A DNA stretch of 64,000 nt from Octopus vulgaris (lineage: Eukaryota). Under the pieces are notes generated by a model. That model searched no databases and was not told where the DNA came from. It worked only from the letters and a program-made list of their open reading frames with translations. The stretch spans positions 99,572,001 through 99,636,000 of the forward strand of contig OX597820.1 of the NCBI GenBank assembly GCA_951406725.2. The letters are read 5' to 3'. Every line of letters starts with the position of its first letter. The stretch's first letter is position 1. The position numbers and the translations under genes were made by a program. Positions 661-55,799 of the stretch are shown here, one piece after another.

Positions 661-1322
661 TAAATCTGGTTCCTTAGCCTTTGATGCACGTCATCCTTTT
701 CCCAAGAAAACAGTTCTTTACTTGTTTAGCTGGTGTCTCATAACATTTAGACTTCCAGGTTAACACTGCATGACAGCAGTTACCATTTGATTGAAGCTTT
801 TAACTGATTTCTGCTGAATCTAGGACTCTATATTAGGTTAAAGTGGTTTAGTAGTTTACACAGCAACCCTTTCAGTGGACGCTGTTCCAGGAAAGAACAA
901 ACTCGGGCAAAATGTCAGTTAAAAGATAATTCCATTCTTTCCAATATCTAGGGTTTTCCAAACTTAGGTCCTGACACCGGAGGCGAAATATAGACTGTAA
1001 AGGAGCTTCAAGATCACATTTACGGCACGTGCACTAGGATTCTCATGAGGGATCATGGCATGAGCAGACACTTTGAACTTATAAAAGGTGTTTTTTTTTC
1101 CTGATTTATATATATATATAATATTTTTTGAAATTTGATTTAGTATTTCTAAATTGAATTATTCCCTGTAGGTTTGGAATAATATTCCCTCATTATATAT
1201 ATATATATATATATATATATATATAATATTAATTAGAGACAAAACCACTATTTTGCAAATCAAACAAGGAAAGACTTAATCAATACATAAAAAAATTTTT
1301 TTAATATAAAGTAAATAAATCG

Positions 1323-55799: not shown

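What the first reader, a model, noticed from the sequence alone, without database searches (positions are those of the whole stretch)
1221..53700. Many hammerhead-ribozyme palindromic retro-inserts targeted to (TA)n microsatellites
Seen: at least 7 sequence-unrelated short families carry the hammerhead core CUGANGA-stem II-GAAAC-palindrome-GUH-stem I. Examples are 2316/1323, 7675/7593, 27482, 34375/32283, 41501/41221, 53283/42196 and 34980. Stems differ completely between families yet pair, and the stem-III region is palindromic or nearly so in each (AATT, ACGT, GATC, GGCC, CGATTG). About a dozen elements share the layout microsatellite-inverted arm-(spacer)-sense arm+tail-microsatellite. Established: Penelope-like retroelements (PLEs) carry minimal type I hammerheads in their terminal repeats, these can cleave as dimers through palindromic stem III, and PLE copies often have inverted termini. 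Inference: a diverse, microsatellite-targeting PLE/retrozyme system has seeded this DNA with roughly one ribozyme motif per 5 kb. The density and the stereotyped palindrome layout may be undescribed for this lineage.
Basis: partly seen in the sequence, partly recalled or inferred. Interest (0 to 1): 0.88.

Follow-up and report, generated by a model that had tools for sequence, protein, structure and literature searches.

The report
Octopus Penelope retroelement ends with ribozymes
Most of these mirror-image inserts are leftover tail ends of Penelope-like jumping genes (Hydra group) that carry a predicted self-cutting RNA motif and sit in TA repeats, a pattern already in print, but one family has a tRNA-like front end and likely borrows Penelope enzymes to spread.

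Summary
The hammerhead motifs are real: 6 complete motifs in 64 kb against 0.075 in shuffles. A 600 kb genome sample implies roughly 60,000 genome-wide. Families A-E (2320, 7680, 27485, 34381, 41507) are 5'-truncated 3' ends of Hydra-clade Penelope-like elements (PLEs). Each family links to a Hydra-type ORF, and intact ribozyme-ORF-ribozyme elements of about 6.3 kb exist. Ribozyme, palindromic stem III, (TA)n target, inverted copy and tail are all published, including one octopus Hydra family. They are not retrozymes. Most inserts are predicted to bury their own ribozyme.

Less ordinary: 53 of 58 head-to-head pair rows join one short and one long end. Family F (42232, 53322, 53660) has a tRNA-like head, PLE-type inversions and tails, and 8-15 bp target duplications instead of microsatellite targets. 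I found no paper on this, but this scan noted F before on other DNA. F's enzyme donor was not found, so F may be the front end of a coding PLE. Cleavage and expression are untested.

The parts
1215..1584 (-). Family A inverted arm ending at the short 3' site, abutting (TA)n 1194-1229; complete hammerhead, core at 1362
1585..2527 (+). Family A sense copy: internally deleted 3' UTR fragment, hammerhead 2316-2359 (stem III ACAAUUGU, GUA site), tail about 2464-2527, then (TA)n
6798..7055 (.). Palindrome plus one-sided tail between (TA)n runs; no hammerhead inside; family not linked to an ORF
7226..7481 (.). Palindrome centred on a half hammerhead (3' core, GGCC loop, GUA) near 7351; right end at (TA)n
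7497..7757 (.). Family B head-to-head insert: left arm with long tail and mutated core; right arm with complete hammerhead, core at 7680 (GUU site), short end at (TA)n
7939..8560 (.). Family H inverted insert (relative at 25445-25730); only the 5' half of a hammerhead core at 8430 and 25591; status as ribozyme not shown
16803..17136 (+). Fragment of a Hydra-type ORF (thumb region)
   Evidence: iE 7e-17 to a profile built here
24845..25092 (.). Inverted arms plus one-sided tail between (TA)n runs; no hammerhead inside
25813..26223 (.). Palindrome of the same general layout; no other copy in the loci held
27411..27655 (.). Family C insert: short inverted arm that stops at the hammerhead 3' core; sense hammerhead 27482-27562; long tail; (CA)n and (TG)n flanks
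32077..34765 (.). Family D head-to-head insert: hammerhead cores at 32361 (-) and 34381 (+), stem I only 2 bp; long tail to (TA)n 34766; interrupted by a mariner-like transposon at 32609-33915
34875..35088 (-). Family G end fragment with decayed minimal hammerhead (core 35010, stem III ACGU); second decayed copy about 39035-39210
35184..35345 (.). Palindrome plus tail between microsatellites; core decayed
41134..41621 (.). Family E head-to-head insert: left arm with partial long tail and mutated core (41302); right arm with complete hammerhead 41501-41591, short end at (TA)n
42193..42445 (-). Family F fragment: internal trinucleotide repeat, body, hammerhead core at 42232 with a 3-nt loss at the cleavage site
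53198..53700 (.). Family F head-to-head insert: left arm to the long end (core 53322 -), (TTC)n, palindromic tRNA-like 3' half with B box (about 53476-53559), (ATA)n, right arm (core 53660 +) to the short end

Best explanation
Families A-E are 5'-truncated 3' ends of Hydra-clade Penelope-like retrotransposons that sit head-to-head in (TA)n repeats, likely because the element's RT-endonuclease nicks both strands of the repeat and primes two cDNAs from two fixed internal start sites downstream of a hammerhead that is predicted to cleave only in full-length tandem transcripts. Shown: a Hydra-type ORF upstream in every family; intact ribozyme-ORF-ribozyme elements for the A group; two fixed 3' ends per family, 70-100 nt apart, both at (TA)n; one short plus one long end in 53 of 58 pair rows. 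Inferred from the anole PLE (PMC11167929): both strands are nicked and extended, and the two ends are the two RT start sites. Inferred: most cDNAs stall early, so short mirror-image stubs result. Predicted: in a transcript through a stub the antisense arm pairs with the ribozyme and silences it. Family F has a tRNA-like head with A and B boxes, the same inversion and two-end signature, and 8-15 bp target duplications in unique DNA. It is likely copied from a Pol III-type transcript by a PLE enzyme that does not target microsatellites (probably Penelope/Poseidon type; not identified).
For: Motif excess over shuffles. First-look candidates per family search: 1437, 931, 1569, 292, 1601, 1532 for A-F. 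Sense-strand Hydra-profile hits within 1.5 kb upstream in 3, 4, 7, 2, 3 of 30 loci for A, B, C, D, E; no Neptune-profile hit. ORFs of 821-862 aa in 12 of 150 scored RT matches. 5 of 8 long-ORF loci fetched have a hammerhead on both sides, 6.0-8.0 kb apart. The protein has DKT, CxCX5C, CxxC, CxH and no CCHH, as defined for Hydra. 30 of 30 A and 28 of 30 E copies reach a (TA)5 run at one of two fixed distances; 28% of random positions have one within 400 nt. Stem III homoduplexes of -6.4 to -12.4 kcal/mol. Palindrome-keeping variants AATT/GATT/GATC in the A group. For F: head in 47, inverted arm in 40, target duplication in 26 of 58 loci; 36 of 40 pairs short plus long; 42 of 58 loci have outward-pointing pairs and none has only an inward pair.
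Against: No cleavage, transcription or transposition was shown. Clade assignment rests on motifs and a profile built here, not on a tree with reference Hydra proteins; the RWK motif reads KWK; Pfam gave no hit. The A-group element is about 6.3 kb with a 3.5 kb 3' UTR, while described Hydra are generally under 3 kb. Only 10-14 of 30 loci per family have an inverted partner within 1.5 kb (a few doubtful). The 58 pair rows include double rows (three D loci) and three doubtful A rows. Isolated A and D motifs fold poorly (stem II probability 0.07 and 0.005), and the whole-insert test on D covered the right arm only. G, H and five hammerhead-less palindromes were not linked to any ORF. For F: ARAGORN (0 of 9 loci) and Rfam (3 loci) do not call the head a tRNA, and no partner ORF was found.
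Confidence: 0.85

Rival explanations
1. For F only: it is not a separate SINE but the promoter-bearing front end (pLTR) of a protein-coding Penelope/Poseidon element. Internal RT initiation just behind the ribozyme would copy only the first 280 nt, giving SINE-sized dead-end copies.
For: An ATG-led frame of 52-53 codons stays open through the long end (query and matches). The anole PLE starts its ORF in the hammerhead and its RT start sites lie inside the ORF. Earlier notes e1-8669850 and e1-9522561 claim a coding partner (unchecked).
Against: 0 of 150 best matches continue into an open frame over 203 aa (only 150 of 37,772 candidates scored, so weak). No PLE ORF beside 60 F loci with Hydra or Neptune profiles, which would miss Poseidon. 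48 complete heads show no shared upstream sequence apart from inverted F arms and one pair. No long public protein starts with this peptide (weak).
Confidence: 0.4
2. The inserts are non-autonomous retrozymes: short ribozyme repeats that make circular RNAs and are copied by PLE enzymes in trans.
For: Most copies are short and non-coding. Retrozymes are reported as PLE derivatives.
Against: 5' ends are staggered over 0-1500 nt and run into ORFs. No head-to-tail monomer arrays in the window. Retrozymes are defined as tandem units of about 170-400 nt with a hammerhead in each.
Confidence: 0.05
3. The mirror images arise after insertion, or by fold-back copying of one cDNA, or are MITE-like DNA transposons.
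For: Arms of one insert share non-majority variants about 3-7 times more often than unrelated arms in A-D.
Against: The arms end at two different fixed element positions, which fold-back of one end or MITE termini would not give. Arm-arm difference is 1.6-11%, and no variants are shared in E. Shared variants also follow from one source element or gene conversion.
Confidence: 0.06
4. F is an ordinary LINE-mobilised tRNA SINE with twin-priming 5' inversions, and the hammerhead is incidental.
For: It has 8-15 bp target duplications, and a few copies of a LINE-type SINE also show abutting inversions (3 of 23 pairs with a gap of 0-1 nt).
Against: Both F arms include the 3' end, at two alternative sites. 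The control SINE shows no orientation bias (12 versus 11), while F does. No poly(A) or repeat tail at either end.
Confidence: 0.07

Closest known systems
Hydra-clade PLEs, including Hydra-1_Obim of Octopus bimaculoides (Craig et al. 2021, PMC8557442)
   Same: C-terminal GIY-YIG with CxCX5C linker, DKT, no CCHH; canonical hammerhead with an extra base at either side of stem II and a palindromic stem III; (TA)n target; inverted 5'-truncated copy; one-sided tail
   Different: At least five deeply diverged families here (endonuclease ends 20-57% identical) against one octopus family listed; A-group element about 6.3 kb with a 3.5 kb 3' UTR and pLTRs; tails 70-100 nt rather than 30-40 bp; KWK for RWK
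Minimal PLE hammerheads (Cervera and De la Pena 2014, PMC4209133)
   Same: Many families per genome, mostly single truncated copies, opposite-strand pairs 100-700 bp apart, palindromic stem III, dimer model, bulged base 5' of stem II as in F and G
   Different: Estimated about 60,000 intact motifs here, against about 2,000-9,000 per genome reported there (different descriptors); axolotl has 126,247 in retrozymes
Poseidon_Ac of the green anole (Frangieh et al. 2024, PMC11167929)
   Same: Both strands cleaved and extended, two internal RT start sites bounding the tail, predicted dimer, ribozyme dispensable for insertion in vitro
   Different: Different clade and target; the short-plus-long pairing rule was not in the parts I read; in Hydra both ends fall on TA-rich element sequence
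Schistosome Sm-alpha / Sj-alpha SINE-like elements with hammerheads (as reviewed in PMC6765202)
   Same: Pol III-type promoter plus hammerhead in a short repeat, like F
   Different: Described as tandem units released by cleavage; the passages read mention no PLE-type inversion or tail. F is dispersed and inserts head-to-head
Non-LTR retrozymes (PMC7229834; bioRxiv 10.64898/2026.07.22.740005)
   Same: Type I hammerhead, PLE-related, non-coding copies
   Different: Tandem monomers and circular RNAs; not the layout seen here

Membership tests
Hydra-clade PLE (families A-E) | Single ORF with RT and C-terminal GIY-YIG endonuclease | tested here: met
   840 aa ORF with YRDD and C-terminal YIG for the A group; ORF C-termini upstream of B-E
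Hydra-clade PLE (families A-E) | CxCX5C linker, no CCHH, CxxC and CxH in the endonuclease | tested here: met
   A-group protein; CxxC and CxH visible in B-E fragments; the linker is not preserved in most B-D fragments
Hydra-clade PLE (families A-E) | DKT in place of DKG; RWK motif | tested here: inconclusive
   DKT present; RWK reads RIKWK; tested on the A group only
Hydra-clade PLE (families A-E) | Canonical hammerhead near the 3' end | tested here: met
   same architecture as File S2 rows
Hydra-clade PLE (families A-E) | Insertion into (TA)n | tested here: met
   against a 28% background; some B, C, D ends meet (CA)n/(TG)n or no run
Hydra-clade PLE (families A-E) | Generally under 3 kb | tested here: not met
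   A-group unit about 6.3 kb; a tendency in the paper, not a strict criterion
Hydra-clade PLE (families A-E) | RT groups with reference Hydra elements in a tree | not tested
   Reference proteins were seen only as cut text in a supplement
EN+ PLE insertion (A-F) | Inverted 5' copy and one-sided tail | tested here: met
Active hammerhead ribozyme | Conserved core, three stems, NUH site | tested here: met
   6 window copies; common F form has a GUU site
Active hammerhead ribozyme | Self-cleavage as monomer or dimer | not testable with these tools
   needs an in vitro assay
Non-LTR retrozyme | Tandem non-coding monomers, each with a hammerhead | tested here: not met
tRNA-derived SINE (family F) | tRNA-like head with A and B boxes and a sharp 5' end | tested here: inconclusive
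   Boxes match the recalled consensus by eye; 44 of 81 head hits start within the first 10 nt; ARAGORN and Rfam negative
tRNA-derived SINE (family F) | Non-autonomous: no ORF in source copies | tested here: inconclusive
   No ORF in 60 loci or 150 scored matches; rare coding masters not excluded
tRNA-derived SINE (family F) | 3' end shared with an autonomous partner | tested here: inconclusive
   No partner in 1.86 Mb of loci
tRNA-derived SINE (family F) | Pol III transcription | not testable with these tools
   needs Pol III ChIP or 5' end mapping

The most novel reading that the evidence does not exclude
Family F is a tRNA-promoter SINE of about 23,000 insertions that is mobilised by Penelope rather than LINE enzymes, a pairing my searches did not find in print. 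The short-plus-long rule records one RT dimer priming both target strands from two different sites of the element RNA. Such PLE hairpins make up around 40% of short-range inverted repeats in the sample and are a main source of the octopus's unusual double-stranded RNA and hyper-editing load.
Probability: 0.35. Interest if true: 0.7.

Novelty: new variant of a known kind. Interest (0 to 1): 0.42.

Why it matters
The headline claim is a known property of PLEs, so by itself it adds members, not a concept. Three things could matter.

(1) Intact, near-identical Hydra elements with two sharply fixed ends give a ready substrate for the open question of how PLEs make inverted copies and tails. The short-plus-long rule is a direct prediction for an in vitro assay.

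(2) If F is a Pol III transcript copied by a PLE enzyme, it extends SINE-type parasitism, or Pol III promoter use, to PLEs.

(3) Octopus has an exceptionally high fraction of near-perfect double-stranded loci and hyper-editing (PMC5625713 passages). 31 of 74 short-range inverted repeats in the 600 kb sample have a PLE family or PLE-like layout, so PLE insertion geometry may explain part of it (inference, untested).

Tried and rejected
Rfam scan of the window at E up to 10: the 150 rows shown of 315 were mostly microRNA-model hits on microsatellites and palindromes, with no hammerhead among them. A first descriptor that required a paired 10.1-11.1 position found only 1 motif and was too strict. 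Pfam has no match for the Hydra or related ORFs.

Search for F's partner failed: GIY-YIG search of the genome returned Neptune-type endonucleases with no F end attached; recalled Poseidon RT motifs and a Neptune profile found no Poseidon fragment in the loci held; a shared continuation beyond the F tail in two loci was a local duplication; the peptide search found no long frame.

Sequencing runs: no RNA holder listed; no reads were laid, so expression and cleavage ends stay open. Shared arm variants do not separate one template from one source or gene conversion. The control SINE S1 had 30 of 169 copies near an inverted partner, but in both orientations, which fits its density; S2 had 4 of 105. 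Rejected: retrozyme label, MITE, chance, and the idea that the genomic palindrome provides the ribozyme dimer.

Full report
Setting. The window is G000:C7:99572001-99636000 in a 2.8 Gb genome of 227 contigs. The inserts lie among exons of a probable sodium/solute symporter gene on the minus strand (weak NCBIfam hits).

Observation. A hammerhead descriptor finds 6 complete motifs in the window against a shuffle mean of 0.075, and 8 core-plus-stem-II motifs against 1.0. All 6 have a self-complementary stem III although only its two outer pairs were required. In 60 evenly placed 10 kb stretches there are 15 motifs, 13 palindromic, against 0-2 in 10 shuffles. That gives about 60,000 genome-wide (Poisson range 32,000-104,000, ignoring pairing), with the window about four times richer (p 0.007, uncorrected for selection).

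What A-E are. Each family has hundreds to over 1,400 first-look candidates; 30 loci per family were examined, chosen as best matches to the window copy. Family A copies with longer bodies carry RT and GIY-YIG fragments. A protein search found 12 of 150 scored matches in open frames of 821-862 aa. Of 8 such loci fetched, 5 have a hammerhead on both sides of the ORF, four of them 6.0-6.3 kb apart. This intact subfamily is 72-81% identical to the window copy in the end repeat and 95% identical in the endonuclease to a family A copy. Its protein has RIKWK, DKT, YRDD, CxCX5C, CxxC, CxH and no CCHH, the Hydra definition of Craig et al. (section 11). A profile of nine such proteins hits the sense strand upstream of the ribozyme in 3, 4, 7, 2 and 3 of 30 loci for A-E; a Neptune profile hits none. 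One weak hit in an F locus falls in a low-complexity linker. Endonuclease ends differ strongly between families (20-57% identity), which explains why the DNA looks unrelated.

Ends and pairs. Each family stops at two fixed distances behind the cleavage site, both at (TA)n: about +97/+182 (A), +31/+102 (B), +42/+110 (C), +220/+310 (D), +37/+136 (E). Of 58 head-to-head pair rows, 53 join a short and a long end, 3 two short, 2 two long; three D loci give double rows and three A rows are doubtful. Independent choice would give about half. In the anole PLE both strands are extended and the tail lies between two RT start sites. The simplest reading is that each strand is primed at a different site (inference). 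Arms share minority variants more often than unrelated arms in A-D but not E, which is not decisive.

Ribozyme function. Stem III palindromes form homoduplexes of -6.4 to -12.4 kcal/mol in A-E, and only C folds a hairpin alone. A-group variants AATT, GATT and GATC keep the palindrome in 56 of 59 motifs. In whole-insert folds the stem II probability drops to 0 for A, B and E. In C stem II survives, but the 3' core pairs with inverted-arm sequence. So the mirror layout is predicted to silence the motif; a dimer needs two sense copies, as in the tandem element. The ribozyme was dispensable for insertion in vitro in the anole element.

Family F. Upstream of the ribozyme lie an internal (AAT)n-type repeat and an 83 nt tRNA-like head with A and B boxes (box consensus recalled). 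In 58 loci from two searches: head in 47, inverted arm in 40, short plus long in 36 of those 40, target duplication of 8-15 bp in 26. Pairs point outward. The common ribozyme form has stem III ACGU and a GUU site; my first search was biased to a 3-nt deletion variant. Five insertions in 600 kb suggest about 23,000 (wide error), and a peptide search gave 37,772 candidates. ARAGORN and Rfam do not call the head a tRNA. No enzyme donor was found, so SINE versus front end of a coding PLE is open. I had reached the F reading (note) before seeing that this scan noted it on other DNA; the target-duplication test and the pLTR rival came from those notes.

Other inserts. G is an abundant (TA)n-ended fragment with a minimal, often decayed motif. 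H and five palindromes share the layout without a complete motif. None was linked to an ORF. In the 600 kb sample, 74 short-range inverted repeats were found: 9 in families A-J, 3 in window palindrome families, 19 unassigned with microsatellites at both ends, 8 LINE-type SINE pairs, 35 unassigned.

What is in print. PMC8557442 (abstract, passages, section 11, supplement rows and part 2 of 59): Hydra clade, hammerheads with palindromic stem III, (TA)n, inverted copy, tail, Hydra-1_Obim. PMC4209133 (parts 1-2 of 4): minimal motifs, dimers, opposite-strand pairs. PMC11167929 (parts 1-2 of 4). PMC13282606 (passages and supplement search): PLEs are 6.83% of O. vulgaris in 190 families, with no mention of hammerheads. 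Passages only: PMC7229834, PMC6765202, PMC6962438, PMC5625713. Part 1 of 5 of the retrozyme preprint; its supplements are closed. The Lunse et al. dimer paper was seen only as a reference title. Searches for a PLE-mobilised tRNA SINE or an octopus hammerhead survey listed nothing that describes one. Subscription journals, Repbase and Dfam were not covered.

Verdict. The remaining interest lies in family F, the short-plus-long rule and the hairpin load.

Noticed in passing
window 13375-14133, 17306-17899, 29996-30475 (minus strand): Exon-like frames of a membrane transporter; weak sodium/solute symporter hits. Resembles a DUR3-type urea transporter (recalled). Many of the inserts would be intronic.
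   Followed up: partly
window 32609-33915 and about 18646-19939: Two mariner-like transposons (IS630-family hits); the first sits between the arms of the family D insert.
   Followed up: partly
L302, L303 and many equal-scoring matches: A young Neptune-type PLE with a 781 aa frame; no hammerhead core found within 3.5 kb downstream by a relaxed pattern.
   Followed up: partly
family G copies, e.g. L209, L066, L317, L003: Many G copies read CCGACGA instead of CTGACGA in the core, so the canonical form may arise by CpG decay from a U4C variant.
   Followed up: no
L168, L177, L180: The 3' end of an (AAT)n-tailed LINE abuts the internal (AAT)n of family F, suggesting a LINE that targets this repeat.
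   Followed up: no
L032 (G000:C2:150678500-150685500): A family A insert made of at least four template segments in alternating orientation, including the ORF start and the tail in reverse.
   Followed up: partly
window 7345-7362, 27445-27485, 7660-7668: Inversion centres of three short palindromes fall in or next to the hammerhead, as if RT stalls at the folded motif; not counted genome-wide.
   Followed up: no
L258-L262, L204, L279, L293: A further Hydra family (J) with a long stem II and stem III variants ATAT/ATGT; not present in the window.
   Followed up: partly
window 4483-4883 and eight or more similar copies; 21566-21972 and similar: Two abundant tRNA-type SINE families used as controls; one has an internal (TA)n/(CA)n tract.
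   Followed up: partly
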